Shown here one piece after another: positions 6,874 to 61,381 of a stretch of DNA of 64,000 bases. Where the stretch lies: positions 16,306,001 to 16,370,000 of the forward strand of contig OZ004613.1 of NCBI GenBank assembly GCA_963924565.1, in the 5' to 3' direction. Position numbers and translations under genes: made by a program. Source of the stretch: Ascidiella aspersa. Its lineage: Eukaryota. Under the pieces are notes generated by a model that saw nothing but the letters and a program-made list of their open reading frames with translations, did not search any database and was not told the DNA's origin. Numbering within the stretch: position 1 is the first letter of the stretch; each line of letters begins with the position of its first letter.

Positions 6874-9536
6874 CAAAGTTCGGTTATAGGTGAGGAGCAT
6901 ACAACACCCTACATAAATTATTATCTATGTCAACTATATCTATACAGCAAGTTTTTTTTTTATTGTGTTTTTCTGGCGTTTAGTCAAAGCGAACACATCG
7001 CCTTTCTGTTTTTGGACGTACGATCGCGTAGCAATAAGAAAAATCAGTTAATTTTCTGATAAATTTATGTATTTAAATTCTCATATACCCAAAGAAACTC
7101 GCCCGGTGAATACTTTATAGTTGATAAGGGTACAAATTTTCAACCTTTTGGCGTAACCACCTCAGTTGGGTTCGGGCACATAAAACGAAAGCAAACAAAA
7201 ACATAGCCTAAGTTTCTCAACTCTTTTTATTGTTTTGCATTCCACTCGTCGCACAATGAGTTATGCAATATAAAAATGATTCTTGTTTGTTTTCGTCGAA
7301 CAGTTAACTGTTTAACAACGAGGTTTTCGGTTTCCAAACGAACATACTAAACTAGATCAACTATTTTCCACACTGGGGCTATAATTAAAAGCGCAAAAGT
7401 TAAAAGTAAAATATATTTGTAAAATATACAGTAGATACTAGGTGTATCGGATAAAACTGCCTACTAGGCACTTGGTAATACAACACAGATGTCACAAGCA
7501 ATTACATTTTAAGTGAGTCATATTAGTTTTGTGGCATCGCGCGCCAGCCAGACAGAATTGTTCAGCACTTATGAAAACACCTTCATTAAAATTCTTTCTG
7601 GAGAAATCACGCGGTAATCACGTGAATATGCAAGCCACATACATATTGTTAACGAGAATTTGTTTGAATCTTTCCCTGTTTAGCAGACTTAAAAGTCACC
7701 AACATGACTGGAATGTGATATATATCTTCTAAACACCTCCTACAGGATATTGCTGCAGTCGGCAGCGTTATACTGTACATATTTGTTCGGAGACGCGCTC
7801 GATATAAAAGGTGCTAAAACACTTACCTGTTGTTCCATTGGCACCCGTCGAGAATTTTTGCCGTCGGGAATTTTTGATCAAAGGCAAAAAAGATTACAGT
7901 AGGCCGCCGATCTTTTTTTTGTTTTGCAGTTAGGAAGAGTTTTAAGATAAGTTTTAGTTGCCAACTAAGCCTTAAGACGTAACAGGCAGTGACGGGTTCT
8001 TTAATTATGTTATCATGGTTTTAAGGCAGAGATAGAATTGTATGTTTCCCAAAAGTAGGATGTATTGGGGCTACAGAAAGACATTTGTTTTACGAAATCG
8101 ATATTGATGCGCAACATTTAAAATAATTTATACGGACTGTAAATGGTGTGGTTTTCAAGTGATCCAGGTTTACAAACATTTGTTTGTTAAGCGATATCGA
8201 AGTGTTTGTAGTATTATAAAAACTGATGTAAGACGGACTGGTCGAACAGATGGATGATCATGAAAAAACTTGTTTTCGATGAATGCGGCCAGGGCTAGTG
8301 TGTACGATTTATGTTACTAGAAGTACCCAATAACAGTTAGCAGGCAACATTAAATTTAGCCTACTTGCCAAATTCCATGGTTAGCTTTGTCATCTTCAAA
8401 TTTAGGCATAGCGATTACAATTGGATTTTAGCTTTGAGGTGCTTTGCCTTCAGAGACGTCGTAAATTTATAGCTGAAAAGTTTTTTTACAAAAGACAAAA
8501 GCATTTAGCCTTACAAAAGCATTGACCTTATGATTGACTTAGGCCATGAATTTGTGCATTTCTAAGCAGCCTGTTTAAAGGGTCGTTCGAAAATAGCAGT
8601 TTACCCTAAAATTAACTAAACCATGTGAACTCAAGGATTGCTAAGTAGTCTCCTATCCGCCAAGAGTTTTAGAGCAGACCGCATTCTATTTATAGATAAT
8701 TATAATGTGCAATTGTTTACTTGTAATGCGAACAAAGTGGATTTACCTTGTTCAAAAGAAAAGTCACACGCGGTGCGTAGTTATGCTTCCCTAGAGTTTA
8801 ATGGAAAATGAATTATATTTGCCTTGTTGGAAATTCGTATTAGGATACAGTGTTTATAAAAAAAAACTTGGCATGCTGATAAATTTTGTGTAATGCACTG
8901 GTGTACTGCTGACGCTATTTGTTTGTGTGTAGCGCTTAATTTGACTGTTGTTTAAATTCATTCAAGACATAAATGTAATTAGCGTTGAACTATCGATTTG
9001 TCTGTTTGTAGAAGCCCGTAAGTAGAGCTGGTGCCCATATTTGCATTTGCCCTGCTCGCGTGTCTGACTACTTGACTTCAGGGGGACTCACGCGCGTTCC
9101 GAGAAGAAAGCCACATTTTTTTACAAGCCGCAACTACCGGCGCGCCGAGACAAGTATAGTGCGGCAGCCAACGAGGAGAAAACAGCTCATAGCGTAACTA
9201 AAGCTGTTCGACAATTACAATACTTAGAAAAACTGCTCACTGGTGGAAGCTTCTTTGTGAAAAGGAAAACGACAGCAGCTTGAACCAATGGGATACTTTA
9301 CGAGAAAGTTCAATTAATTGCAACTTAGAATGAAATCAACTTTCAACACCAGTTGCTGTCCGGCCAACGTTATTGTTGGTGTAAGAAGTTCTGCGTGCAA
9401 TAAACAGAGTATTTATTGCAAAAACGGACTAATATTGCAAAATTTATTCAATCATTTTCGAATGCAAAGACAGCATAGCAAGGAACTAATGGTAATGCAC
9501 TATGCGAGCATAGGAAAAAAAACTCCATTAGTCAAA

Positions 9537-29061
<19,525 letters not shown>

Positions 29062-41400: not shown

Positions 41401-42020
41401 GGAAATGTTTTTTGGTGCTCGTTAGTACACATTTATACGCATTGTATCATATCTTCATTACATTTTAAGGTTAAATTTACGATCGACCTTTTAACGGAAT
41501 GTTTGTTGTTGCATTATCGATCCGTATAAACCTTATTGGTTTGTAGATGCGCTCGTGACAAAATCAACAGGCATTTAGGAATCGCGAGAGTAATGTTTGA
41601 ATATGGCAGTGGTTAAAAATTAACAAAAGGATCAAAATTGTCTGTTTGTTTTCTGTTTGGCGTCTATTATTGTGATTATGTGACTTAAATCACATCTTAT
41701 TTCATATCTTTCTTCTATAATTATGGTTATTACACATGAACAGCTGGTATTTGTTGCTTTTTTTTATTCAAATGAAAGTAATCACAGCATAATTTTAGTT
41801 TCTGTGGAGGTAAGCTTTTTGGTAAAATGAACTTTATTTTTAGGTTGTCTAGGATTGTATTTTAATTGTTACACAATACTCTTCTGAATATGGCATTTGA
41901 CTGACAATGGATTACTTTTTTGACCACAATAACTTGTGTAGCCCTTTGTCACTACTAAACTTTATCTGATTATAACCGAAAAAAACAAAGAAGTTAAGCC
42001 AAGCATCAAGGAATGGGCAT

Positions 42021-43493
42021 ATGATCGCTAACAATAATGTTTCAGTAATGAATGACGTCAGTCACAATGTCTCTCGAGAACTAACTTCAGCAATGCAAAG
42101 TGTCCCACATGTGCCCCCAGTTGGTTTCTCACCTTCAACACATGGTGATCCAAGTTCTGCAGCTGCACAATCAATATACCCACAGTCCTATGTGTCTCCA
42201 TATGAGGGTGGTTCTGCATTAACTACGCCATACAATCGAGAAAGCATGTTTCCAAATCAATCTGGAAGTTCTGCACCACCATTGCCATTTGGTGGAATAA
42301 ACGACATAGCACCCTCGCTTTTCGGCTCAGGGATGCTTGGGTCTCACCATTATCACCACCCTGCGACTCACCCCTTGCATATAACACCCCGTACTAATCC
42401 AGGCTTGTTGAATTATGGGCAGTCACCCATCCAACCACCATCACAGCACTTGTTTCCTTCTCCATCCTACCCAGGTTACCCCAATCCTCTTCATTTGCCA
42501 CCAAGTCAACCAATGACAGATCGAAACCTTCTTTTTAACCCAATGATTTCAAGGTAATAAGAACAATTAAAAAACATGAAAATGATTTTTTTAAATATAT
42601 TTTTGACAAAAAGTTTTAAAAATATTTTTCATTGTTGTCTATTGCTGTTTAAAGGATGCTCTCATATACATGCAATATAACTGGATTTTCAGTCGAATTT
42701 CAAAACCTCACAACTGACAATCTTATCAATTATTCAAAACCAACTGGACTAAAAGTATTCTATAAAATGTTAAATGTTACCTCCTATCTTTTTTCCAGAC
42801 AAGTTGGTTTGATTGTTCTTTTAAAATAGTGCATTTAGCTTAAATCCCCTTTTGTAATTAATGAAACAATATTAGATTAAAAGTGCAAGATTTGAATGAA
42901 ACAAATCTATTTACCTAGGCCCTCAGAGACTTTTTTAATCGAACACCTTGTTTGTATTGTGTGACCTGTCATTGTCCTAAATGGGTTCGAGAATATGCCA
43001 AATTTATATATTCGGGCAACATGGTATGCAGTTATGTCATTGTATTGGCAATCTTACTTATAACACAATTCCGAAATCACATATATATTTTTTAGATTTC
43101 CAAGTCTACATCACAGAGGCAGCTCTCCATTGTCTGCATATGGAATGGGTGCAGAAAACTCTTTACGACAACCATTTTCTTCTCTTTTGCATGGACCTAA
43201 TGGTATTTATGCAATTTAATTTCAATGTGATTTTACTATTAAATTGTCAAACAAGTTCTCTTAAGTGCAATAGGTTTTGCCCCACATTGTATTACTTAGC
43301 AAAGTTATCTTATATACTACTTCTTAGTGTACAGTAAAAATATTATACACATGCTTTGGTTATATTAGTTAATTTATTGCACACTATAATTTATTTTTTA
43401 AACACAAATTTTGCAGACCGCAAGTGCTTACCATCTTCTCCATCAACAAACATTACCAACAATTCTGATTTGGATCCACGTGGTGATATGAAT
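42021..43493 (+). CDS. Tet: Tet exons 1-3 (42021-42553, 43096-43202, 43417-43493): Pro/Ser/His-rich N-terminus
   Basis: Open frames, canonical splice sites and phases 2/1/0 leading in frame into the CXXC exon. Confidence 0.78.
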
Positions 43494-46400
43494 GTAAGAT
43501 TATGCAAAAATATTATATAAATAAATATCTTGTAATACACTCCATATGGCATAGTGCTTGTACACAATACTTTTTTAAAGTGCATATATTAAAATAAATG
43601 TATTCTTCTTATGTCAGATTTTGATAAATATACAATGTTGTAGAAGAAGTGGCTGCTTTGTGAAAATTTAACAGCAGAAAGCTTATGAATATTTTATGTG
43701 TTTGTAACAAGGCAAAATGTTCATCTCGGGGCCTCTCACAATGTAAACTAAATTATTATCTCATTTTTTAATTTGAAATTCTTCATAATAAATTTCTGAT
43801 AGAATTCTCGAAAGAAAAGAAAAGCATGTGGCCATTGTGGGCCATGTCAGAGGAAGGAGAACTGTGGGTCATGTATGAATTGTATCAATAGAGCCAAAGG
43901 AAAACAAATTTGCATTCACAGAAAATGTGAAATCTTGAAAAAAAAGGTAAGTAATGCAATATAACCACTTATAGCAAATATATACCTCTTTTCAACAACT
44001 TGTTTTTTCCTAAACCCGTATATTAATTTGCTTAAATAACTTTAAAAATAATCATCATAGTACACACAAGAAAGTTTAACATGTTAATTTTTGTTGTCAT
44101 TATATCACATAAGTAATAGGCAATTAATAAATGTTATATTCAGTTTGTGATAAGTATTTCTGGGAAACCTTATTCTTTGTAATGTTGTGAACCTTTTATT
44201 ATTTTCGAGTGTTTGCTTTTTCAATATAGTTTTGCCCTAATCCTAATTTATTTGCTCATTGTTCCTATCAACGTCGTGATTAACCCAACACCTGAGCTAT
44301 ATCATCTGACAATGCCCAGTCCGTTATACTTTGTTTGCCGAACCAATTTTGTGACAAAAGGACAATCCCGCTTGACTGTTGAGGTTTCTTTGTTTACCAC
44401 AGGAAGTGAAATAATAACGGCTTAGGAGTTGCTTTAAACGGGGCAGTTATTAGGCCCTTTTGCCTCATTTCATTTTCACTGGTCGTTTTTGCTGACAGAT
44501 ATAAATCTTTCGGAATAAGTTGTTTTTTCTGTTCCATTCTTGAGGATAACAAAAAAAACGAACGCTGCCTTCGCCCGCGCAATAATATATTTCTCCTTTT
44601 TTGTTTTGTTAGTCCTCCTTTCAGCTTTTTATCTGTGGACAATATCTCCATGTGTAGCATCAAAGTCGATGAACGGTGAAACGTCGGGATTAAATTTTAC
44701 CTAGCTCTAGCTTGTATAACATTCTGAACTTTATCAAAACGAGATGACATTTGTTTGGCATTAAAGCTTAAATCTGAATATTAAATCACTGTAGTAATTC
44801 GGGCTACGAAACTGCTTTGCTTAAAACATGCAAATGATGAACGACATTCAACTTTTTCTCTTTATTCGAGTTTGTGAACAAGTAAAATTATAAAGTGGGG
44901 TTAGATAGAGATTAATGGTATTTGATGTACCGGAAAATTTCTGGTTTTCCTCACACAGACATTGCTACACTGACTCAGTGTTGGTATTTCCTGTTATTAC
45001 ATTTCGCTTTTCCGCAAGCTCGGATAGCTTTATGGTTGATTAATGTTCAAAAGAGAAAGACCAAAACAATAGTGGATTTACGCTTACAGGCCATTTACTG
45101 AAACATACTGTATTGCACTGTAACAGAGTTCGATCAGATTATATTTCCTTGAAATCGTTCGTACATTGTAACAATCAAACTAAGAGTGTTGATGTACGTA
45201 AAGTGTAGCTAGCGCAAAAATGCACGTATATAAACATTTAAATTATTGTAAAGAAAGGATTAACTATTAACATTTCGAAACAAACGTTAAAGATAGTACT
45301 TCGTAATTGTAACACCGTTTATAAATGTAATCTTCGTCTAACATGACAATGGTGATTCTCTTACTTGGGTTTGTGGAAAGATGTTCTAATTAATGTTAAT
45401 GACGATTTTATTGATTCGTCTAAAACTACCTGTTCTAGCCACGTGGTAAGGGTATAGTATAGCACTACGTTTAATAGCAGGGCACACTTTACTTCAGTTA
45501 GCCAAATAAACCATTTCTGTGTCACGCACACTAATACACTTGGAAGCAAAAGGGCGCATCTGTTGAAGTAGCCAATTCAAAACGAGTGCCCTGTTTGACC
45601 CCATTAGCTTTTATAGGGAAACACTGTTGTTTCACTCCACAGTTAGATCGGCCTCTTTTCTCACGGCCACTTAAAACATGTTGTTTTGTTTGCTTTGTCT
45701 CCTTTGCCAGTCTTTGCACTCGCTCACCCAACAATATTAAGTTTCACTAGATCTGCTGTACAAGTAACCTGTATGTAGCACTTCTAAACCAGCTTCTACG
45801 TTTGATGGCCCATTTACTCCACAAACATTTATAATACTGGCTTTTATACAGACCGTATGATGTAGCTACTATGATAACAGCGTAGTACGTTTTGCGTGTT
45901 TTCTTTACATTTGCCAAGTAAATAATGTCCATTACATGGAGAATTTAAGAACGGTTGATATCATTCAGTTTTAACAATGTTAACGACAATTCACACCTTT
46001 GCAACGTTTTTATTATTTGCTTGGTATAACCAAGAGGAAAGAAAAATTGATCATGTCAAGACTGATGTACGTGGTCTTACTCCTGCTTCAGTTTTTTTCA
46101 AATATCTAGCCATTATTTTAAACCGTAGCTAAAAGCTTTTTCTTCTTTTTATTTTGCATTTTTGTCTGAAACGTGTTCATAACGTGGGATTCCATCTGTG
46201 CCCGGTTGGAATATACGAGATCCAACAATTATGAGCAACATTAATTACTACTGTGCCAAGCGTAGTTATTAATCCGTGCAGGTCGACTTTTCATGTGGCC
46301 ACTTTGAAGGCGGCGAGGTCAAGCTGGTGATCTGGTTTGGTTGCGGTCAACGCAACTTTGTGATTTTGACTCTAATTGCTCGTTGTACCACTCTGCCAAT

Positions 46401-49400
46401 GACAATTAATGGCGACTGCTTTCCCTCTGCCACACGCGTCAAACAAATTGTTACCGTTTTTTAAGAATTATTTTCCAAGTGACTCGTGCCGAGACTGCTA
46501 AGATCGATTTTATTACATTCCCTCAGTTCGATTGACATGCGTCCGAACAATGTTATTACATTTTTCAAAATGTTATTACGGTCCAGCACCCTTAAAGATG
46601 TGTGTTGAATTCGTGTTCGTGCAATAACAGTTTCCACTTTATTAAAGTGGCATATTCAGCGACGGAATCTTTTTGTGGCGTCATAGCTGATGTGTGGGTG
46701 TTGTCATAAAGAGTAATTCCTTTTGAAAATAATACAGTGCAGTGATAAATGGTTATGGAATGCCCGCGTTTCTCTACTCGTGATACGTAGCAGTTGAAGA
46801 GAATATCTAGGAGGGAGCTGAGAGGAGCGGAGAAGAGCAAACACACACTCGCCAAGACCAATTGAAATTTGTGTCACCAAACAACAGGAAATTTATTTTG
46901 TGTAAATAGAGCCTTTTTCGATGGTTCTCCTCCAGCACTTTGACCAGCTCTTAGCTTGCTCTTCATGATTAATTTATCTCCACAATAAATGTGTGTGCGC
47001 TACGGAACGTGCACGTGTATGTGCGTGTATCACTTCTCCAGTGACAGAGTAATATTGTTTTGCGTAAGATTGTCGGGGGCGACCAACTTTCTTCATACAC
47101 TAAAGCTGCCGGACGATAGTACTCGTTGCTGTAATCTTACCCAGGATATTTAAATCAAGTAATTAGATGTTAGAAAGAGCTAAGTAGTTATGAAATGAAA
47201 ACATTTACAAAAAATGACTGATATATTGAAAGCTTGGGTCACTACCACCTGTTGAAATGTAGCGACGTTTAATTGTCCTAATCACATCCCCACCCACTCC
47301 AAAACGCATGTGGTGGTAAACCGCAATTACTTCTCTTATATGTTTGTTAGTTGTTTCGAAACATGATTTAATTTATCTATAAGTCATCCCATGCAACCGC
47401 TCTTAACTTTGTTTTACCGTTTTAGTTTGTTTTAGGAAACCGCTATCCTTGCATCGAAAATAATACAAAACCAGTATAATCTGTATGCGGTTTTATCTGT
47501 AGCCTATCATTCCGTCGTCCTTCATACCATATGATAAACGCTCTGCAATATACGATAGATTTCTTTATCACAGCTTGTTGGTTTCTTTAAACAAAATCGT
47601 CTTGTTTACTCTTTAAGAAACATCTTCTAAACTCACTCGTGTTCGTTAGACCAAACTAAGTTTATTATTTTCATTTATACTTGCGTAAAATTGATGCAGT
47701 GTGCTGTGTGTAAAAAGGTTGAAAGGTTGAATGTCGGTGTAATTTCGCTTAACATGAAGCTTAGGAGTTTAAATGTTACGTAATCGGTAACGTTATAAGT
47801 CGCATTATTATGCGATATATTTTTTAACAGATTTTAGAACTGGCCAATTTAAAGCTACCATCTCGGCCACGCTATTTATTTTCATTAGGTTAAAACCTGT
47901 CCCGAAAACAGCTTGGGATAAAACTTTTTTAAAAGTAGTAATGTGTTGATCGACCAGCAAAGCTTTGGTGCACAGATGTGACTCAGGCGGATTAGAAATA
48001 CAATAGCAAGCAAGCGAAAATTCGCTATGTTTATTACATTGACGCGCATAAATTATTCAACTGGACATTTTGTATTTTACCAGCCGTTTTTAACCTTTAT
48101 AAAAAGGTTGAAATGCAGACAGTAGTAAATGGTTCGACTTGCTAAGGATAAAAAGTGCTTTGAAATGGGTTAATGGCATCTTGAATGGGCTCTGTCGCTT
48201 TTTGTGAAACGGAACCCAACCTGTACAACATGTTGATCGCCTTTCTTTACCCAACCGACTATGGCGCGCACCTAAATCCATCCAATTGCTCACAAAACAT
48301 GGCCAGGAAGTACAAACACGACACACCTAGGTATACACCGTGTTGTTACAATAGTTTTAATTATCGCCCGATTGCAAAGATTTTATTCTGATTTCGGCGC
48401 TCGATTCATCAAAATCTTAATCAACAACTAATTAATAGACCGAAAAACTATTTTAAGGCCAGCAAATGATTTTAGGCCTGAATACAAAAAAGTAGTTTTT
48501 TTGTTTTGTTTGTGGAAAAAAAGGACTTGTTCTATTGTAAACAATGAACGTTCTAGAAAAATATAAAACTGAACTAAAATTGCATAATCTCCCTAGAAAA
48601 TTAGTCAGTCGGCTTGGTAGATTTTAAGGCAACCCCGATGCCTTTAATTACGTACAACAAGCGCAAACCAGTCTAGTCAAGCTTGGTTTTGATTGACAGT
48701 CGGGCGCAATAATGCTTGTTGTGCCCGCGGCAGTATTATTTATGTTAATCCGCATTATGTCAAAGAGTCAGTTAAGTGTTAAAAGTTTGTGTTTGTCCAT
48801 AAATACGAAAAAAATATGTATAGATGTATTTTTGCTAGGAGTTTCGTCAATTATTTTCCGTAAATCGTTATAACAAAGACTGACCAGTGTAGGCGTTGGG
48901 AAAAAAATAAAAAATAAAAAAAGGTTTCTTTGCTTAAGTTTAAACAAGTTTTTGCTGATGTATTGTACATGCCTTTATCACATATGTTTTTGTTATCAAT
49001 ATTTCATTTTCTGTAATATCATGACAGTTAATAAAACTCACGTGCCAATTGGTTATTTTCCTAAATTAAACAGCCTTCAAAAGTCTAAAATGACGAAGGA
49101 TCGGTATTAAATTTTTGGTTACAACAAACAAGAAAAACAAGATTATGGCATTAATATTTTTATTGAAGTTACTAAAAAAAAAACGTGTATTGTATTCCAA
49201 GATAATGTTTTTCTGTAATACAGAATTAACTCTGTGGTTAACTCCGAAAAGGAAAACAGTAGTTTTATGGTTTACCCTTCACCAAATGGTTGGCCATCGG
49301 TCCTGAGCCTCTGTAAACAATGTTGTATGTGGTTGGTCATGAAAGTTTTAGAGTATTGTTATTCATTGGAAGATCTTAAACACTTTATAGAAAAAAACCT

Positions 49401-52400
49401 TGCAGTCTGCTTTTTCATTTTGCTAATTCACACAGAATAGTTACCCTATTGAAAGCATTTCATTCCAGCACATCTAATACAAAGCGAAAGTTAATAACCA
49501 ACACAAAGTTTTCTCTTTTACTTTTAAATTCTAAGTATGTATAACCATTAAATATTTTTTTAGCCTGGATCAAGCTCCTACATCCCGACTCCAGAATCAA
49601 TGCCTAAGCAAGAAAAACGAAAGGTAAATGAAGTATTTCAACTATTTTTTGCAAACCAATAAATATTTACTTGCAATTCGCGCCTAAAAATTTTTATTTT
49701 TTACAACTATATAGTTTAATTTATTTGTATTAAAATAGCTAGGCGCGACAAATTTAATTTATAGAACTTGCGCAATCATAATTTTTAGGGATGTCGTGCT
49801 TATCAAGATAGTTTAAAAATATGATCGTTTTTTAAATACGTTTTTTTGGTATAAAACAGAAAACGTAATGAAACAAAAAGAAAGACATCTCTTTTTCGGC
49901 CTAATCGTAATTATTCGTTCACAAACTTTGGGTCGATCATAATTCATAATTGCCAGCAGCAACAGAACAAGACAAAAGCGTTATCTGGACATCTTCGGCT
50001 TGAAGCCTCTGTCTCTCACGCTCTGTTTACCACTTGCCTCTAATTTCGGAGATCAGCAACCAAACATGTACACACATCTGGTTGTAGGTGCAAACAATTT
50101 AACTCGACAGAGCCCGGAATGCCAGGCACCAGTTTGTGTTCGGATTACAATGTTCATGTCTAAGAAGAATCTTGCTGTCAATTAGGCAAATACCAGCGTT
50201 AAACAAATCCTCACATTTCTTAATGAGAACCATTTAGCTGCAGTTTGGTTGCCACCGCAGATTTTTGTTAGATAGTTTGCGTAGTTTTGTCTAATATCGG
50301 TTTAAATCTCAACAAACTCAGAAGTAACGAATTTACTGGCGTATAATATCAAAGTAAGTCCTTTTATTACAAGCAAAATGTGATATTTTTAGCAAAAAAG
50401 AGAGTGTTATAAAGAAGGTTACCTCTAACAGTGTGACCGTGCGAAAAACGAAACTGATAATACGTTCGACGTTCGTTATGTGGCACTATTGCAGCAAAAT
50501 CTCCATTTTAACGTTTTTTTTTGTTAATCCTGTTTGAATATTTTAGTGGAATAAAAACTATATAAAGAAAACGAACCATTCTACGATGTTAAAAAGTGCG
50601 ATTTACGAGACAAGTACCAGAGGGATTTTTGCATACTAATCAAATATAGTATAAACATTAAAACTGCTCTTTTTCAGTATATGGTGATCAACTGCTCTTC
50701 TGACAATAGCTATTTTTAATTAAAACGTAAATTTGCTCGTTAATTTCCAGTGGCTATTTTGGATTGTAAAATTACCCAGTGCTTATGCCATAGTGGATTA
50801 CGATAAATATTATTGTTGCCAGCAGCTTTGCTAGAGTACAACATTTTTCCACAAAAAATCATAAAAACCACGAGGAGTAAATAACTTTTAAGTAAACCAT
50901 ATGCTTAAATTACATACCCTGTAAAAAGCTGTTGTTTATCGGCGAATAATTTTAAAATACAACATTTCTCGGATAAGCTCTTGACTGCTCTATAGTGGCT
51001 GGTAAATAATAATCTGTCGGCCACTTGAAGCAACAGTAAGCTAGCCAAGATTGGCATTTCTTAACGTGCGTTATATGATTATGGCTCGTTAAAATGTCAT
51101 TTTATTACGTTATACTATGCTACATCGAGTTACTGGTAAAAATACATTTATGAAGATTTTTTTCGCCGCTTGTATATTCAGTTACCATACACGTTATATA
51201 CTCTTTGATGTTCATTTTATTTCATGTTAAACTAAGTTATCACTAGCAATTTTCTTTCAATGGAATCAATTAAAAACCTATTATCGTGAGTTACCGGCCG
51301 AATATTTTTAAATGTAATTTGTCTAGCATGTTTCAAACTTGTTCAAACAAGATCGTGACGCAACACGAACACTGCCTTTTGTTGTCGCTGCTCCAGTTTG
51401 TCGCCTGTTTAAACGCACCCTTCATTCCCACAAGTCGTTATTACCTTGCGACGAGGCGAAAGAAAGAGAAAGAGGTAAACCGTACCTTGCTACTACGGCC
51501 CGGTATAGTGCGCGTACGTGCGGAACGAACGGTTGCCCGCTTTCTTCTCTTTACTCTCTTTCTTCGGTCGTTTGACCTCTTGTTTCCTGACGCTTTTGCC
51601 TTTGCGTATATCGACCCGGCTTCGTTGTCAGGCAGATGTGGTTTAAGCATATGCGGTTTCTTACCCACAGCGCCGCTGTATAGCGTGTTGAGAAGGCAGA
51701 TGCTTATGTGTGTAGACCGAAACTCTTTGCAAGCTGATTTAGTCCTGCTGAAATTGTGTACGGTCGACTGGTCGTAACATGCCTAGCAAAATATAAGAAT
51801 AGCTCGAGGCAGGTTAGAGATTGGGTTCACAGTAACTACTGTACTGTCCTGTCAAACGGCACATTCTTATTTTCAGATGTTGTTTTTTCTGCCTATCAAA
51901 GCACAAAAAATATTTTTTCGACTTTAGTGTAATTAGAGATCTGTATTTGGATCTGGCAAAGATATACCGAAACGCAGTAATGGTTAATCGATCGACTAAA
52001 TAAATACCGTTTGGTAGTGAGCTGTACCAGAGTAACGCCTTGTGAACGATAAAAGCACTCGCTAGCGCGCGTTTTGTTGCGCATATTGCATGTGCCTGCC
52101 AGAAGGATATCCTGCATTCTGCCTGTTCGTTGCATCCAGTCAACAACAGGCGCCTGGGTCGCGAATTAGCTGCTGTGTGAATTGAGTGTTCGTTTAAACT
52201 TTAGTCTATAGCAGTGGTTGTGATCGAAGTAACGTATAGTTCACTCTAACTGAGAATATTACTTGTTCTTTGTATAACTGACTTTTAATTGTCTGCAGTA
52301 TTTTGTACAACTCAGTGTTTGAGTTTGTTTATATTATATGGTATGTTGTGTTTTTGCTATCAGGAATGGTTTCCGTAAGAGTTCTCAAACACGGGATGTG

Positions 52401-55400
52401 TTATTAAACCGTAGCCAAATGATATCAAGTGAATATTACTGATTTACACTGTTCATATTTTCTAAGAAAGTTTAAATTAAAATATCGCATTTATCTATTC
52501 TGCCAAATGTTAAACGACCTTTTGCGCATCGTGTATCACGTTTGCTCTTGAAATAATTATAATGTTGAAAAAATAAGTGTTTAGTTGACTTTAAAGACTA
52601 GGTATTTATAGAAATGTTTTAAGTTAGGTTATATGGATGTTTTAGGTTTAGGAGGCGATCAAACGTTTGGTTACATACTTTGTTTTTGTGCCTCGCCACG
52701 AGCCAATTTGTTGCAGTCACGTGACAGTCATCACACGAAACTGCTGAGCTTGGACTGGCGACAGTTGTGTTTTTTTATTTATTAGTTCGGCTACGCTTCA
52801 CTGTATTGTACAAGCATTTTACGTCGGTTTTGTTGAGGTCATTTCGAAGCGTTTTGTGAAACTTACAATTTTGCCCTATTTTTTCGCGAAATCGGATTAG
52901 CATTTAACAGGCCATTCAGCAGACGGGCTTAAATTGTGTATTTAAATCAACCTTATATAGAACTAAAACACTTATTTTGCCTTCTTTCGATTGTGACGAG
53001 TTTTTAAAAACGCATATTTTTGTTCAGGATATAGATGATTTTGTGCCTAATGAACCGAAACGAACTAAAACCGAAGAACCTTCTGATCTACCTCAAGTAA
53101 GTGGATTAAACTTGTACCCACGTTTTATGTGGCATCCATATTAATATCATCACGTTTTTCATCTAGGGACTCGTCCACCCAACCTTGCACCCTAACTTTG
53201 CTGAGTTCGGCGATTTAAGCCACGGTCCGTCGCTCACGCACCAAACAAATCAGCAACAAGTGATTGAAAGCCAACACGAAAGTGTCAACCCTCCACATAC
53301 GCAGACCGGTAAACATTCGTTGACATACTAACTGTTTGTTGTAAAAGTTCGTATGTTTAAAGGTATAAAACTTCAACGGTAATCACCAGTTTCTGAATGC
53401 TCTACTTGAGAGTTGGCGTTACTGTTGTTTATGTTGTAACTTATAAATGTCCTGACGAATACTTAAAATGTGCATTATCGACAGGAAATCCTTCGTTTTA
53501 TCAAGGAGAGCAATCATTTCACACCGGGGGATTTCCAGCATCAGAACAAGCGTCAAGAACGGAAACAAACGTGCAAAGTAATCCCGGCGTTGAAGATTCC
53601 GACTTTATCAATCAAGCGTTGCAGGAGATCGAGAGCAACATCAGCGCAAACCAGACTCCACAAGCTGCGACTGGTGCAGGGCCCAGCTCTAACAACTCAC
53701 TAAATGACACTACCAACTCCGGTGGCATCGGAACCTCCATACAAGGGCAAGGTACGCCCTGCTCGCAACTTCAACAGCAACTACAGAGCCCACAACAGCA
53801 ACAACAACGGCGGGTTTCTCAGCATGAGAACGAATTCAATTGGAACCCCAGCATTCACGACAAGACCACTCCTCTAGCCACTGACCATTCGCAATTACCT
53901 GGCCGACCACCTCCGCCTACTGGTCCAGGTCCCGGATCAGGAACACATGAGAGTGATAAGTTGTTGAATAATTTGCGCAAATTCAATTCCCCAAACTCCT
54001 TTCATGGCCAGAGTAGTCCTGTAAAAGACCCTTCTGAAGCTGTAACAGCTCAGTACGCAAACACCGTGCTGACCAGGACGCAACAGAAAAGTTATGTTGC
54101 TGACCAAAGTATGCTCAGTGCAACTCCAAGTGACGGTTTAGAATCTACACTACCGCCATCGTTTGACAATCTCGACAACAGGCAATTTCCGTCTAATCCT
54201 GCATCGAGCAATATCCCACTACAGCAACCTTCCGGCGATTCGAACCGGTCTACCATGTTCCAGCCCGAAACTCCGCAGTATCACAGTCAGCAAGTCGGTC
54301 ATGTAAGACCAGACCAGGACCAAAGAATGCTTAGCGGTTCGTACAATCCAGTCGGTTATCCGCAGCCTAACAACCAATCGTACCAATCGCACGTCAATCC
54401 TGGCGCCCCTAGACCTTTCTCAAGGCCTCCTTTTTCAGGCAGCGTTGATTACAATAACGACAATCGATTTCCTTCTTTCCCGTCCAATGTACCGCAAAAC
54501 AACTTTGACACCAAGCTTGGTGGTCCCAATACCGAGTCGCACCCGCGATTTCAGTATCCACAGCAGCCAGCAAATAAACCATTTCAGCACCAGACACCAC
54601 CTCAATATGACTCAAATTTTAACCAACGCTCTGGTATGCAACTTTCCGAGCAAAGATTTCCCGCACCTCGACCCAACGTTATTGGTGAGCCGTCAATAGA
54701 TTCACCGATCCAAAACGGTAGCAGTTGGAACTTCAAAATGCCTTCGTCACAGTTACAAGGGCAAACTCAACACTCTCCCCACACGTCACCCCATGACGTA
54801 AATCACAAAGAAGGGTTAGTTCGTCCAAGCTTACATCCAGCTCAACCTTCGTATCCCAACTTACATCGACGAGCGAGCAGAAACCCTTCAGCTGAGTGTT
54901 TTCCAGCAACTCGACACTTGCCCGAACAACCGTTAAGCAACGGGAGTTCAAACCGCAGTCCTATGGTGCAGAACTCACCTGCTGGACCCGTCGTAACGCA
55001 CAGTCCATTCGCCAGTTCGGCGGCCAGCAGTCTTAGGAGTCCCGTGTCCACCCTAATGACAGGCTCTCCTGTTTCACAATACCAGGGTGCCACATCAAGT
55101 CCGTCTGTAGTCACTATGCCGCATTTATCGACTTCACCAAATGTAACCAATCACCACCAAGGTGAGGCCCCATCGATGTCTGCTAATCCACAAACATACA
55201 GACCGTGGCACGAACCCCAAGGCACCGCTCACCGTACACTTCCTCGTGACATGCATTCCGGTCACTACAGGAGTGAGGGTGCTAAACCGGAATCAATGTC
55301 ATCTGCTTCTAATCATTTTTTAGCCCAACCTGGCAGCAGTCTTAATATGCCACCTCATCAACGCGACGCCCTGTCTTTTTGTGCGAACGTTGACCGACAT

Positions 55401-58400
55401 CGTCCTTCAGTTGAAGGTGCTTACGTTGGCAACGGTTCGTTTGCTGCTGCCAGGTTATCTGTCCCAGACAATCAAGAGGGAACGGACAAGATAGGGCCCA
55501 ACCAACGCAGTTCTCAGGGTTACACGAGCTCGGACAAGGCGTTCGCCAACACTATGAATTCAATACTTTACGGCAAATCGTCCAAAGAACCACATGGCTA
55601 CAAGGCTGAAGCGACAGGGCAAAATAAAGCTTTGCCTGCTTCGTCACCTACTGACGCCCACTCCACCATATCACCTGGGGAGAGCGGGTACGATTCTGCC
55701 GAACTCTCGTCGGTGGTAAGCGATAATGCGTTACACCATAACGTGTTAAACGTGCCACCAAGAGGCAACGAATCACTCTCCATCGAAGGTGTGCTTTTGG
55801 AAAATGTCATTACCAGCGACCTTTCAAAAAACGCCTATGCGGCCTCGGTGGGATCGGAAAATCAGCAGGTGCGAGAGTCTAGCTCTGATGTCATGTCGAA
55901 GGCGTGGATATCTCAGGAATCCTCGACTGAGACAGGTAAGGTTAGTGGCGATGAATATTTATAAATGTCAAACTCGTTTATTAACTTTATCTAAATAAAA
56001 AAGGATTTTTTAGAAAGTATTTACGATTAGCTAAAACGTATATTAATCGTTTTCTGGTATGTTTCTTTGGTTTACCTTTGAGTTCTATACAATTAAATTG
56101 AAATATTTTTTTCAAGGCCATGTGAGCTGCACTCGAAACCTGCTGCCTGCCGAGGCCGCTTCAACTGTGGGCCATAAACCCACAGTAGCGTCCCCACAAA
56201 TACAGCCTGTGTCCACTACAAGTGTCGAAATTGACAATAAACTACCTCACCATTGCAAACCTGCAAGAAAGAACGCTAGTCTTCCTTTCGTATCGTCATC
56301 CATTTGTCAGTCTGTTAAAGGACGAAGCGTTTCTTTGGATTGCGAAGGGGAACCCCCAAAACAGATTGTCTCTCTTCGACGTTATAGCTACCAAGGCCCG
56401 AGTAATGCGACGCATTCCAATCGTGTTTATCCTGAACGTTTGCAGACTTTTTTTCAAACGAACAAACCGACCGTAAGCGTTCCTTTTTATTCAAGAACCA
56501 CCCCTACAACTTCGTTGTATTCCCCTAACTTTTGCACTCCACCTGAACGCTTTCCAACGTTTAGGGAATACCCCCTTGACACCCCTCCACAAACTCCTGT
56601 CGGGTCACTTCAACGAAATCAAAGTACGGAAAGCACACATTGCCAATTGCAACAACATTATGCACTCCCCACCCCTCCACACAGCGCTGATGAGCGTAAA
56701 ATAACTTACAATCCGCAGCGAGGGCTAACATCTGATGAACTGCGTGGCTATGTAGAGACTAGTAAAGGTCCCAACAACACATTGGTTAAAAAGTCCGTAT
56801 TTCCAGGATGCTCTTGCCTGCAAGGTACGCAAAAATATGAACGTTTAACAGCAAAAACTTGAGTGAAATATACCGACTACCAAAATTAATATGAACAAAC
56901 TGTTAATAGCAAAAACTTGAGTAAAATATACCGAATACAAAAGATAATATGAACAAACTGTTAATAGCAAAAACTTGAGTAAAATATACCGAATACCAAA
57001 ATTTGTATGATTTTTTTTTATATTATATATGTTTTTAAGATACTTTTGAGGACGATGCCCCTTATTATACCCACTTGGGGGCAGCTGCTGATTTTGTCGG
57101 GCTTCGAAAGTTGTTTGAACAAAGATGCGGGGTAACTGGAAAAGAACTGCGAATAGAAAAGGTGAAAAAATCTCAATATTGTTGTTCAAATGGAAACCAG
57201 TATTGCTTTTAGGTAACGCGAGGAATGTTTTTTTTTTAACTGATATTTTTTCTTTAGGTTCAGTATACCGGTAGAGAAGGAAAGACCTCGCACGGCTGTC
57301 CCATCGCCAAATGGGTAAGTTGTCAAACTTTCTCAAGTGTTTTAACATTGGTAAAAATCAAATAAGTTATTATTTTTGGCATGCTCAGGTGCTGAGGAGA
57401 TCAGGAGCCCATGAGAAGGTTATGGTGGTTGGCAGGAAGCGACCTGGTCACATGTGCCCTACCGCCGTTGTTGCCGTAGTGATTATGCTTTGGGATGGCC
57501 TCGAGAGGCCAATGGCCGACTTTGTGTACAGCAAGTTTGTTGACAACGTTCCCACGAACGGCGAGGCCACTGAGCGACGCTGTGGAACCAATGAAGAGTA
57601 AGTTTACTGTTAATTGGCTAGGTTGCCACTGAAACATAAAATTACATTAAATTTTATTTAAAGGTCGACTTAATATTATTTATAGCCTAAGCTTGAAGAC
57701 TTCGAGAGTTTTTTATGACCTAACAATTCAAAAAAATTATTAAACAAAGTTATTTTCTATTTTTTCACATTCCCGAAGGTCAGCTAGTGATATCTGTAGA
57801 TGTCATGACATAAAGTTTGTAAAAAAATGACTTTGGTAAAAGGCACCCTACTTATCACTAAATTATGTTTAAAAGAAACTTACAATAAGGTTTGCCAAAC
57901 TAATGTTGTTTGGGCATTTTTAGCCATATTTTAGTGCCAAAAATGCTGACATCCGTCTTCTTTGCAGGCGCACTTGTGCATGCCAAGGGTTCGATGACGT
58001 CACTGGTGGCGCGTCTTTCTCATTCGGATGCTCGTGGTCGATGTTTTACAACGGATGCAAATATGCAAGATCTGTCAACCCCAACAAGTTTAAGCTCAAC
58101 GGGACAAAAAATGGCGAAGCCGAAAAGCTGGTGGAAAACATTTGCGAGCGTTTATCGTCCGACATGGGCTCTCTATACAAGATGGCGGCACCAGACGCGC
58201 ATAAGAACCAGGTAATCCTTGTCTTTACAATAGGTTCATAAGAGTTTAAATAGTTTGATTTAAAGTTTTATTATAACGTAACCAATTTTTGTGCAAAATA
58301 TTCTTAAGACAATTAAACCATGGAATTCTTAGTCAATACTCAATACTCACTATCACTTTTACAGACTGAACACGAAGAGAAAGGAAGCGAATGTAGACTG

Positions 58401-61381
58401 GGACACAAACCCACAGAAGAAGGTCGGCCTTTTAGTGGTGTCACACTTTGCATGGACTTTTGCGCTCATGCTCACAAGGATCAAAATAATATGGACAATG
58501 GGTCTACTATTGTAAGTGTAGTGGCAAAAGTGTACAATTTGATCGTTCTTTAGTGAATATATGATTTTTTTTTGATTAGGTCTTGACATTAACCAAACCC
58601 GAGCTTAGAGATTTGAGCACCAAGAAGCGACCAGACGAACAGTTGCACGTTCTCCCCTTATACAAGTTAGATCTTTCCAACGAAGACGGAACTTATGAAG
58701 GGGTCATCGACAAAATCAACAGCGGGGCGACCGAGGTAAACACAGACACAAAACTTCAATAGCGCGTTGGTTTACACTGAATGATTATTGGCTATACTTA
58801 TAATAGGCCTTTCCATCTTTATCAAGTAAAAAAACAAATATATTAAGGTGGTATTTAATAGTGTTTATTTTTTCTATTTTACGTTATCGCTGATAACTAC
58901 TAAAACACGGCACGTTCACTATGGCCGTCAAAATCAATAAGTCCGTCCTAATCATTGGTTTATCAGGCGCATCGAAACTTGACAATGTTACCTTGCTTAA
59001 CAGTAACGCTAAATACTCGTCGTTAGGCGTCTTTGCCCAAAACGATATTTTGAATTGTAAAACTGAGACAAAATATGCGTAGATTTTGACAAGTTTTCCC
59101 CGCCGCGTTCGACTTCGCGCCAAACCTGCAGGAACTGCAAAGCAGCGCAAAGACAAGAAACGAAAGGGAGAAATGTACATCAGTCCCGCCAAGAAAAAGA
59201 GAGGTAGAACGCCCAAAAGATCACATTCAATGGAGGACCTTACGTCGATTCCACCAACCGCTCATCAACAAACTTATCAGGAGAAACAAAATACGTAAGT
59301 GTACCTAAAAAAATCTATTGAAACTTTGCCTTCACAAGAAACCTTATTAGATGTATTTGTCTAAGCAGGTATGGCGATCGACCTCAACAAATGTTCCAAC
59401 AATACAACCCTCATACGCCCATCCATACAGCACCCCCACTTGATGTCATATGTTCTCCCCCGCCCCGGTGGCCGTATCGGCGTCACCCTTCCTCTTCACC
59501 GTCGATCGCTGACAGCAACCTTCCCTCAATCGGCAGCATCTTCAGTCCTGGAGGAAGCAATGTGTACAGTCTAAGAAGTCCTTTAACCCCATGTGGCGCC
59601 ACCCCACCTCTTACCCCAAGACCCGCCACACCTTCTTCTATGCTTCCAGCGTTCCAGTTTGGGCGGCGGTTATCAACTACCTCTTCGACTTCTGACGAGC
59701 ATGTTCGCTTGCCTACAGTGGCACAAATTGTACCCGCTCTTCCGCGACCTCACCCAAACATACCCCCTACCCACAACACGGACACACCCCTGTCTTGCCC
59801 TTCCGTTCAACAGATCAAATGGGAACCCAAAGCTGAATATCCTTTCCCGATTCCGCAACACGATCACAAGATAAATCTGAAAACTTACGCATCAAACCAA
59901 CTGCATCACAATCAGCAAACCTGTTTTAACACTGAAGCGGCTCAGAAGCCACCCGTCGAAAGTCAACCAAAGGCTCGTGAATACTACAGCTCGGATGCGA
60001 AGGAAAGCTTCGATGATTCCGAAGTTGGCGGAGTAGCAATTGCCCCTACCCATGGCTCGGTATACAACAGTTCCTTTTTGTCAACTTATTTATTTTATTT
60101 AAAAGAGTCGGCATACATTGCTATCTTGTTTATCTTCAACCAGCGATGTATTGAATCCAGCTTTTCGTACTATTATTAAGACATTTCGTAGCCGTTTAAA
60201 GTATTAACTTACCATTGAAATTTAAAAGAAAACGCTTTAAAAAACACAAGTAAAGCCAAGGATATAAATTTAGGTTTTGATTGAATGCGCCAAGAGAGAG
60301 TTGCATGCCACGACCCCGCTCCTCGCTCCCAACCGCTTTCAGCCCTCCCGTATTTCGATGGTATTTTATCAGCACAAGAACATGAACTATCGCAATCACG
60401 GAGCCTCGGAATACGAAGAAAAAGAGATCCTAAGAAACCAAAAAAAGGTAAAACGACACACTCGAGTATGTTACACACTGCTGTGCACTATCCCATCGAA
60501 ATTCATTAAATTATTTTACCACTCTAGTTAGTTCGTTGAGTGGAGTTACTTACAGTTTTACCTATTCCGCTACTAATATAGATAGTGTAGTTTTTTCACT
60601 TTGGAACATTTCATTTTATATGAGTTTATGATGTTATTCATAAATTAAAAATCCGTTAACTGCATTACAGGCGAAAGCGGCAGAGGAAAAACGTTTGGAA
60701 GAAGTTCGGCAACAGCAACAAGCACAAAACGAAAAAAAACAAGAGCAATTTCGACTGGACGCACGTCTGCCACAGCAAGCAAGTTTTGCTTTTCCGCATC
60801 AACCACATTTAGCACAAATGCAACAACAATTCACAACACCCAATCAAACCCAAAGGACGGCACCATGGAATAGGCATCATTATCCTGACCTTAGCAGCCA
60901 GCCAAACCCACCAATTCTACGAGAGGCCTACTTGAACCCGAGGCTTCCGCATACGATGTATCGTCAGCAGCAAGCGGGCAATCAAAGCGGCACTAGCGAC
61001 GGTTTTTTAATTACGCCACCAATCAGACAACCCATCACTGTGCAAGGTCCGAACCCTAATTGTCAGCCTAACAGTGACATCCTGCGACAACCACCGGAAA
61101 ATCAACGGCGTGTGACTCAATACCCGCAACAATTAATCCCCGCTTACCAACCAAGTCCAATACAGTACTCACCTTTCTACGCGCCAGGTTCGTACCCACA
61201 ACTTTCTGGGAGCATGCATTCCACATCACACCCACACGGAGTTTTGGGGAATTACCCAGTAACCCCGTACCCGCCTTTCACGGATAACACCTCCCCAGCT
61301 CAAAAAAGTGCTGCGCAATCGGGTTCGGGGCAGTCTTACCCGCAGCAGCAATGGAACAATGTTTCTTCACTATCCAGATAA
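42021..61381 (+). CDS. Tet: TET family 5-methylcytosine dioxygenase with N-terminal CXXC domain, 19 coding exons, ~2337 aa
   Basis: Exons joined in frame: 42021-42553, 43096-43202, 43417-43493, 43803-43946, 49564-49623, 53028-53096, 53167-53308, 53485-55935, 56117-56824, 57040-57161, 57258-57314, 57389-57597, 57968-58211, 58365-58511, 58580-58735, 59083-59294, 59369-60059, 60274-60447, 60671-61381 (7014 nt). TET motifs: [76 protein letters not shown] (HxD), [46 protein letters not shown]. Joining the CXXC half to the catalytic half is inferred from phase compatibility. Confidence 0.93.
43803..43946 (+). CDS. Tet: Tet exon 4: CXXC zinc finger
   Basis: [48 protein letters not shown]: 8 Cys in TET/IDAX-type spacing; AG acceptor at 43801-2, GTAAGT donor at 43947. 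Confidence 0.95.
49564..49623 (+). CDS. Tet: Tet exon 5 (60-nt exon)
   Basis: T-rich acceptor, [23 protein letters not shown]|GTAAAT donor, phase 0/0. Confidence 0.7.
51340..51812 (+). promoter_or_regulatory. CpG-dense segment in Tet intron 5, candidate internal promoter/alternative first exon
   Basis: About 35 CpG in ~430 bp by manual count, followed by a candidate donor CAG|GTTAGA at 51812/51813. Confidence 0.35.
53028..56824 (+). CDS. Tet: Tet exons 6-9 (53028-53096, 53167-53308, 53485-55935, 56117-56824): large disordered region up to the Cys-rich start
   Basis: 2451-nt open exon rich in P/S/Q/N; exon 9 ends in FPGCSCLQ, matching TET FPxCxC Zn ligands. Confidence 0.9.
56834..57010. repeat. 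Three tandem copies of a ~58-bp unit filling Tet intron 9
   Basis: aatatgaacaaactgttaatagcaaaaacttgagtaaaatataccgaatac starting at 56834, 56888 and 56946. Confidence 0.9.
57040..58735 (+). CDS. Tet: Tet exons 10-15: Cys-rich region and first half of the DSBH domain
   Basis: [60 protein letters not shown]. Confidence 0.97.
59083..61381 (+). CDS. Tet: Tet exons 16-19: low-complexity insert, second DSBH half, Q/P-rich tail
   Basis: FPRRVR, basic NLS-like tract, [11 protein letters not shown]|[15 protein letters not shown] (third Fe ligand), [10 protein letters not shown] (2OG-binding Arg/Ser), NHG; TAA at 61379-61381. Confidence 0.95.

What the first reader, a model, noticed from the sequence alone, without database searches (positions are those of the whole stretch)
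43803..43946. Tet CXXC finger is a hybrid: TET/IDAX scaffold but KQ instead of HQ
Seen: [16 protein letters not shown], with K at 43902-43904 and Q at 43905-43907. Established: TET1, TET3, CXXC4/IDAX, CXXC5 and Drosophila Tet lack the KFGG motif and carry HQ at this position (e.g. NRKTGHQIC in CXXC4/5). That His reads the cytosine and goes with relaxed CpG/CpH specificity. KQ/RQ is typical of KFGG-type fingers (CFP1, MLL1, KDM2, DNMT1), which bind strictly unmethylated CpG. This finger has no KFGG yet has KQ. Inference: altered DNA targeting of TET, possibly stricter unmethylated-CpG recognition or reduced binding, in a genome with mosaic methylation.
Basis: partly seen in the sequence, partly recalled or inferred. 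Interest (0 to 1): 0.72.

Follow-up and report, generated by a model that had tools for sequence, protein, structure and literature searches.

The report
Tunicate-wide lysine in Tet zinc finger
The DNA-binding zinc finger of this sea squirt's Tet demethylation enzyme has lysine where vertebrate textbooks show histidine, but other sea squirts share it and some fish show the same swap, so it is an old variant that likely leaves DNA recognition much the same.

Summary
Observation confirmed; interpretation only partly. 43803-43946 is a spliced exon (5 RNA reads across its 5' joint) of a 19-exon, 2328-aa ascidian Tet model with intact catalytic residues. The finger has a short linker, no KFGG, and K-Q (AAA CAA, 43902-43907). 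KQ is not peculiar to this genome: it is in Ciona, Phallusia and Styela TET and unnamed tunicate-type proteins, whereas amphioxus, shark, paddlefish and a jellyfish have HQ. The same H-to-K swap occurs in teleost tet3-like fingers, and a mollusc-type non-TET family is also short-linker KQ (43 of 145 scorable fingers among 150 listed representatives). Reviews of the TET3 structures say the His contacts cytosine through its backbone, guanine through its side chain, and that relaxed specificity comes from the short flexible linker, which this finger keeps. Best reading: a tolerated, tunicate-fixed substitution; type-3 binding likely retained (0.6). Not found in print in my searches; binding untested. 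Side lead: short plankton proteins with the same finger but no catalytic domain.

The parts
43803..43946 (+). Tet exon 4: whole CXXC zinc finger (8 Cys, 9-residue linker INRAKGKQI, no KFGG), phase 0/0
   Evidence: RNA joint 43493->43803 in 5 reads, 4 starts
43899..43907 (+). Major-groove tripeptide G-K-Q (GGA AAA CAA); equals S/G-H-Q of TET3/CXXC4
   Evidence: role of the tripeptide from PMC3685328 section 5
42021..43493 (+). Coding exons 1-3 (42021-42553, 43096-43202, 43417-43493), low-complexity N-terminus
   Evidence: tblastn to Phallusia TET residues 1-242; RNA joint 43201/2->43416/7 in 3 reads; model
49564..49623 (+). 60-nt micro-exon linking the finger to the rest of Tet ([20 protein letters not shown])
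   Evidence: AG/GT bounded, in frame; weak match to Phallusia 291-315 (E 0.059); its joints were not seen in RNA at the 3-read threshold, so inferred
53028..56824 (+). Exons 6-9, long disordered region with two tunicate-conserved motifs ([14 protein letters not shown] helix; [10 protein letters not shown] at about 55675)
   Evidence: RNA joint 53096->53167 in 5 reads
57040..60447 (+). Cys-rich and DSBH catalytic exons: HxD (HAHKD, exon 58365-58511), distal His (LHAT) and Arg (RISMVFYQH) in exon 60274-60447
   Evidence: Pfam Tet_JBP on 3 of 6 exon pieces scanned, 2 over the cut-off; model; RNA joints 59294->59369 and 60058/9->60273/4
60671..61381 (+). Last coding exon with stop
   Evidence: RNA depth 8.5 in the last bin

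Best explanation
This is the N-terminal CXXC finger of the single ascidian Tet gene, carrying a His-to-Lys change shared by all tunicate-type fingers seen, and it likely still binds unmodified cytosine with a preference for unmethylated CpG, as type-3 fingers do. Shown: eight Cys, 9-residue linker without KFGG, G-K-Q tripeptide, collinearity with full-length CXXC+Tet_JBP proteins, KQ in Ciona, Phallusia and Styela, HQ in amphioxus, shark, paddlefish and jellyfish, KQ again in teleost tet3-like fingers. From published structures (via reviews): the residue at this site gives a backbone carbonyl to the cytosine and a side-chain donor to the paired guanine; flexibility of the short linker lets the loop tolerate non-CpG and neighbouring 5mC. 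Inferred: Lys supplies the same carbonyl and an amine donor to the guanine; Gly before it keeps the loop flexible; the Lys gained in the loop is offset by a Lys lost just after the seventh Cys (CI/CV instead of CK), so net charge is unchanged (13.1 vs 13.5). The finger would anchor Tet at unmethylated CpG-rich domains of the mosaic methylome, perhaps with modest changes in affinity or flanking preference.
For: Same linker length and Gly as CXXC4/5. His90 backbone to cytosine, side chain to guanine. Flexibility credited to shortened linker and lost stabilising H-bonds. KFGG needed for CpG preference in Dnmt1. H and K both occur in otherwise homologous ray-finned-fish fingers: 8 KQ proteins (2 named, Spinachia and Dallia) share an N-terminal flank with 3 unnamed HQ proteins at E 2e-15 to 2e-8. 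KQ is 43 of 145 scorable short-linker fingers. Net charge of finger: tunicate-type 13.1 (n=12), HQ 13.5 (n=94).
Against: No binding assay or DNA-bound model; the single-sequence AlphaFold model was poor (pLDDT 66, pTM 0.35) and unusable. RAKGKQIC is invariant in all 8 aligned tunicate-type proteins and in loci L006, L008-L015, i.e. K is under strong constraint, not drifting. Three neighbouring positions changed too (KT->AK, CK->CI/V), so the surface is remodelled, not one swap. HQ is kept in 23 of 26 complete TETs, so His matters in most lineages; His90-to-Ala abolishing binding is recalled, not from a call. Primary structure papers could not be read.
Confidence: 0.6

Rival explanations
1. One reading: Lys makes the finger a strict unmethylated-CpG reader like MLL1/KDM2, restricting Tet to unmethylated domains.
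For: KQ is the type-1 motif that H-bonds both cytosines and a guanine. K is fixed in tunicate-type fingers. Ciona has sharply bounded methylated and unmethylated domains (PMC3827831 passages).
Against: Strictness is credited to rigidity from the long KFGG linker, absent here. Teleosts, with vertebrate-type global methylation (established knowledge), show the same swap, so it does not track mosaic methylation; amphioxus keeps HQ.
Confidence: 0.15
2. The remodelled loop weakens DNA binding or changes a protein contact: the Dishevelled-binding KTxxxI motif of IDAX overlaps this loop and is AKxxxI here, so the tunicate finger would have dropped the Wnt link.
For: KTxxxI is reported as minimally required for Cxxc4-Dvl binding (PMC3653909 passage); present in 58 of 95 nine-residue HQ linkers, 5 of 43 KQ linkers, and absent from every RAKGKQI finger. 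An isolated Tet1 finger showed no specific DNA binding in one study.
Against: The motif is also poorly conserved in vertebrate Tet3, so its absence is not special. All Cys, Q and basic arms are kept; charge unchanged.
Confidence: 0.15
3. The Lys changes reading of oxidised bases (for example stronger binding to 5-carboxylcytosine, which TET3's finger prefers) without changing CpG/CpH selectivity.
For: TET3's finger binds 5caC-CpG most strongly (PMC5844914 passage); an extra amine in the groove could favour a carboxylate (inference).
Against: The residue recalled as the carboxylate contact (the K of RKC) is unchanged; the primary paper was not readable; no 5caC data for tunicates were found.
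Confidence: 0.1

Closest known systems
Type-3 ZF-CxxC fingers: TET3 (PDB 5EXH, 4HP1, 4Z3C), TET1 (6ASD), CXXC4/IDAX (5VC9), CXXC5 (5W9S)
   Same: Eight Cys, short linker without KFGG, xxQIC and RKCE.LKKK; best PDB matches E 3e-13 to 4e-10; fused to a TET dioxygenase.
   Different: K instead of H before Q; loop RAKG for RKTG/RSTS; I/V instead of K after the seventh Cys; no KTxxxI.
Ascidian TET: Phallusia mammillata A0A6F9DHL1, Styela clava LOC120347720, Ciona intestinalis F6U6E1 (146-aa entry)
   Same: Finger 48/48, 40/48 and 47/48 identical, all KQ; window model 55.6% identical to Phallusia TET over 2213 columns.
   Different: Nothing of note in the finger; these are orthologues, so the feature is already in public databases though unremarked.
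Type-1 ZF-CxxC fingers (MLL1/2, CFP1, KDM2, DNMT1)
   Same: KQ/RQ dipeptide.
   Different: No KFGG, linker 9 rather than about 15 residues; weaker matches (E 1.8e-6 to 0.14). The genome's own MLL-like and DNMT1-like fingers have the long K(Y/F)GG linker.
Teleost tet3-like CXXC exon products (Spinachia KAM8886807.1, Dallia KAJ8005831.1)
   Same: Short linker plus KQ.
   Different: RKTGKQI, keeps K after the seventh Cys; most likely an independent change (inferred from flanks and species relationships; the finger-only tree cannot reject one origin, p-AU 0.435).

Membership tests
ZF-CxxC domain (PF02008) | Eight Zn-binding Cys in two clusters; Pfam score over cut-off | tested here: met
   35.4 bits vs 26.5; sequence
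Type-3 ZF-CxxC (TET/IDAX) | Shortened linker lacking KFGG | tested here: met
   9 residues, as in CXXC4/5 and Xenopus Tet3; definition PMC3685328
Type-3 ZF-CxxC (TET/IDAX) | HQ dipeptide | tested here: not met
   KQ. The definition came from mouse sequences; teleost tet3-like fingers also break it. Filed as a variant of the type, not a canonical member.
Type-3 ZF-CxxC (TET/IDAX) | Binds unmodified C in CpG and CpH | not testable with these tools
   Needs ITC/EMSA/SELEX
Type-1 ZF-CxxC (KFGG) | KFGG motif in a long linker | tested here: not met
Type-1 ZF-CxxC (KFGG) | KQ or RQ dipeptide | tested here: met
Type-1 ZF-CxxC (KFGG) | Strict unmethylated-CpG binding | not testable with these tools
   No assay available
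Metazoan TET dioxygenase | Cys-rich + DSBH (Tet_JBP) with HxD...H and 2OG-binding Arg | tested here: met
Metazoan TET dioxygenase | CXXC exon spliced into the same mRNA as the catalytic exons | tested here: inconclusive
   Open in-frame AG/GT model collinear with Phallusia TET, but joints 43946->49564->53028 were not listed in about 6% of one RNA run
IDAX/CXXC5 (finger without catalytic domain) | Separate gene lacking a dioxygenase domain | tested here: not met
   Only 1 type-3 finger among 5 zf-CXXC matches in the genome, and it is this one; a short isoform is not excluded

The most novel reading that the evidence does not exclude
The tunicate ancestor rebuilt the Tet finger's DNA-reading loop (RKTGHQIC-K to [10 protein letters not shown]), giving it a new specificity and dropping the Dishevelled motif; the rebuilt finger is so important that a planktonic tunicate lineage (appendicularians suspected) kept it unchanged in a 370-440-aa Tet remnant that lost the catalytic domain, an independent IDAX-like protein. 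With teleost HQ/KQ pairs this gives natural variants that separate the H/K residue from linker length as the determinant of CpG strictness.
Probability: 0.2. Interest if true: 0.62.

Novelty: new variant of a known kind. Interest (0 to 1): 0.3.

Why it matters
The HQ versus KQ rule that separates relaxed from strict CXXC readers was drawn from mouse and human proteins, where the dipeptide and the linker length always change together. Tunicate TET, teleost tet3-like fingers and a mollusc-type family uncouple them, so one small binding experiment can say which feature sets specificity. If Lys is neutral, the rule is just too narrow; if it tightens CpG reading, it would bear on how Tet is targeted in the mosaic methylomes of the vertebrates' closest relatives.

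Tried and rejected
Sequencing error: rejected (two-base change; contigs X1, X2; identical orthologue). Species-specific novelty: rejected. Separate IDAX-like gene in this genome: not supported. AlphaFold on the 48-aa exon alone: low confidence, no zinc or DNA, not used; no fold search run. Finger-only tree (121 rows, 46 columns, H/K column removed): KQ groups fall apart as separate clusters, 5 H/K changes, but 69 of 118 branches are open and the AU test does not reject tunicate+teleost as one clade; not counted as proof of independent origins. RNA for the two joints downstream of the finger: not listed in either lay; no RNA holder was listed among indexed runs. Naming the short catalytic-less proteins: cluster look-ups, ESM Atlas (best 0.84, lead only), a third homologue search and a metagenome scan gave no taxon. 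CpG depletion over the 5' exons as a conserved trait: not seen in L010 or L012. Literature: 10 full-text searches listed no paper that remarks on KQ in tunicate or fish TET fingers; the library lacks most subscription papers, the three primary structure papers were not held, and I opened no supplements (alignments in those of PMC6976628, PMC10936051 or PMC3032784 may show the residue). Earlier scan findings: none. Drosophila Tet HQ was not checked by name (recalled only).

Full report
Observation. Window 43803-43946 is an AG/GT-bounded 144-nt exon encoding a complete CXXC finger; K is AAA at 43902-43904 and Q is CAA at 43905-43907. It passes Pfam zf-CXXC (35.4 bits, cut-off 26.5). The closest solved structures by sequence are TET3, CXXC4, CXXC5 and TET1 fingers (E 3e-13 to 4e-10); the five alignments printed all show H opposite this K, and KFGG-type fingers score far lower. 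His to Lys needs two base changes. Contigs of runs X1 and X2 cover the exon with no differing letter and raw reads list no variant there; five RNA reads from four starts splice 43493 to 43803, on the + strand as judged by mate orientation. RNA depth at the codon is about 0.5-1, so the RNA does not confirm it alone.

The gene. tblastn with Phallusia mammillata TET (2373 aa, CXXC + Tet_JBP) hits the window collinearly from 42021 to 60748, 100% over this exon. A 19-exon model with AG/GT at every junction gives an open 2328-aa protein, 55.6% identical to Phallusia TET, with HxD, the distal His and the 2OG Arg; Tet_JBP was found on 3 of 6 exon pieces scanned. Five joints are seen in RNA, but not the two that link the finger to the rest (43946-49564, 49623-53028), which rest on homology and frame. 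The genome has five zf-CXXC matches: MLL-like, DNMT1-like, one divergent long-linker finger, one interrupted match and this one, so no separate IDAX/CXXC5 was found. The organism is an ascidian close to Phallusia by protein similarity; Ciona has one tet gene (PMC6976628 passages).

How widespread KQ is. Ciona intestinalis (47/48), Phallusia (48/48), Styela clava and an unnamed Styela-like protein all have RAKGKQIC, as do unnamed proteins P0002-P0009 and loci L006-L015. Branchiostoma, sharks, paddlefish/sturgeon, salamander and the jellyfish Sanderia have HQ. Among the best 150 of 176 representatives, 145 have a scorable short-linker finger: 99 HQ, 43 KQ, 2 NA, 1 RQ; five were left out (one KFGG-type, four truncated or lacking a Cys). 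The 43 are 5 tunicate-type, 8 teleost-type, 25 of an (L/F)KQ family and 5 others. The KQ query and clustering on flanks bias these counts; they are not species frequencies. Three LKQ proteins are named from Octopus, Lottia and a chiton, and none of the 9 LKQ proteins scanned has Tet_JBP, so they are not TET. Two teleost-type proteins are named from Spinachia and Dallia; their N-terminal flank is homologous to three unnamed HQ proteins and resembles the Tet3 N-terminus (inference). Of 26 proteins with both finger and catalytic motif, 23 are HQ (many vertebrate and redundant) and 3 KQ, all ascidian-type. So KQ is tunicate-fixed within TET, not general among invertebrates, and has most likely arisen again in teleosts. 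A finger-only tree is too weak to prove separate origins (p-AU 0.435).

Mechanism. I read section 5 of PMC3685328 and passages of PMC4224472, PMC3032784, PMC7136269, PMC3653909, PMC5844914; the primary papers (Xu 2012, Xu 2018, Jin 2016) were not held. [quoted passage not shown] The backbone contact does not depend on the side chain, and Lys reads guanine in type-1 fingers. The ascidian finger keeps the 9-residue linker and the Gly of CXXC4/5. It loses the Lys after the seventh Cys, so net charge is the same (13.1 vs 13.5); K pairs with I/V at that place in tunicate and LKQ fingers but not teleost ones. I therefore infer retained type-3 behaviour (0.6). Against this, the loop is invariant across tunicate-type proteins, several neighbouring residues changed with it, and the overlapping Dishevelled motif KTxxxI is gone. 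The link to mosaic methylation is weak: amphioxus keeps HQ and teleosts have KQ. Ciona's methylome is mosaic (PMC3827831, PMC8286816 passages); PMC10936051 (passages) notes CXXC in sea urchin and lancelet TET without discussing this residue. PMC13109025 and PMC12392533 (passages) added nothing.

Side lead. P0008 (= L008), five full-length members of the P0009 cluster, L009 and L013 are 370-440-aa ORFs with the same finger that stop shortly after an SGYD motif also found at about residue 1110 of ascidian TET; L009 also has the [14 protein letters not shown] helix; no Tet_JBP in the two scanned. They look like Tet N-halves without enzyme. Their taxon is unnamed; appendicularian is my guess, and loss of DNA methylation in Oikopleura is recalled, not checked. 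Truncated isoforms are not excluded.

Verdict. Real, a new variant of a known kind, present in public databases but not remarked in the papers my ten searches reached. The surprise is small once the distribution and the backbone contact are known, but it offers a clean test of the HQ/KQ rule. Interest 0.3.

Noticed in passing
L008:470-1777 (P0008), L009:226-1644, L013:2-1225, P0009 cluster; L006 probably (frameshifted): Short plankton ORFs with the tunicate-type RAKGKQIC finger and the Tet N-half SGYD motif that end before any catalytic domain: possible IDAX-like Tet remnant; taxon unnamed.
   Followed up: partly
window about 55665-55700: [10 protein letters not shown] motif conserved in tunicate-type Tet N-halves and in no other fetched protein; resembles a beta-TrCP phosphodegron (recalled consensus), untested.
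   Followed up: partly
window 42001-44000: CpG observed/expected 0.37 (21 vs 57.5 expected) over the four 5' exons including the finger, lowest 2-kb value in the window, while the rest of the gene is about 1.0: suggests germline methylation of this block only, or an internal promoter near 51-52 kb (o/e 1.34). Not seen in L010 or L012.
   Followed up: partly
P0012-P0014, P0016, P0021, P0022, P0031, P0033: Teleost tet3-like CXXC exon products with KQ, one annotated as 'CXXC5-like'; related flanks with HQ exist, giving natural H/K pairs.
   Followed up: partly
P0010, P0048, P0056 and 22 related proteins: Mollusc-type family of long proteins with a short-linker LKQ finger and no other Pfam domain; appears uncharacterised.
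   Followed up: no
P0143, P0154: Short-linker fingers with NA in place of HQ, lacking both reading residues.
   Followed up: no
window 9318-28547 (+): Upstream gene with signal-peptide-like and propeptide-like exons and a CUB domain; looks like a BMP1/tolloid metalloprotease (recalled family).
   Followed up: no
window 49140-49210: Short high-copy repeat in the large intron, very high contig depth and many loose ends.
   Followed up: no
P0001 (Ciona F6U6E1): Annotated as a 146-aa CXXC-only protein ending just after the micro-exon; either a split gene model or a short isoform.
   Followed up: no
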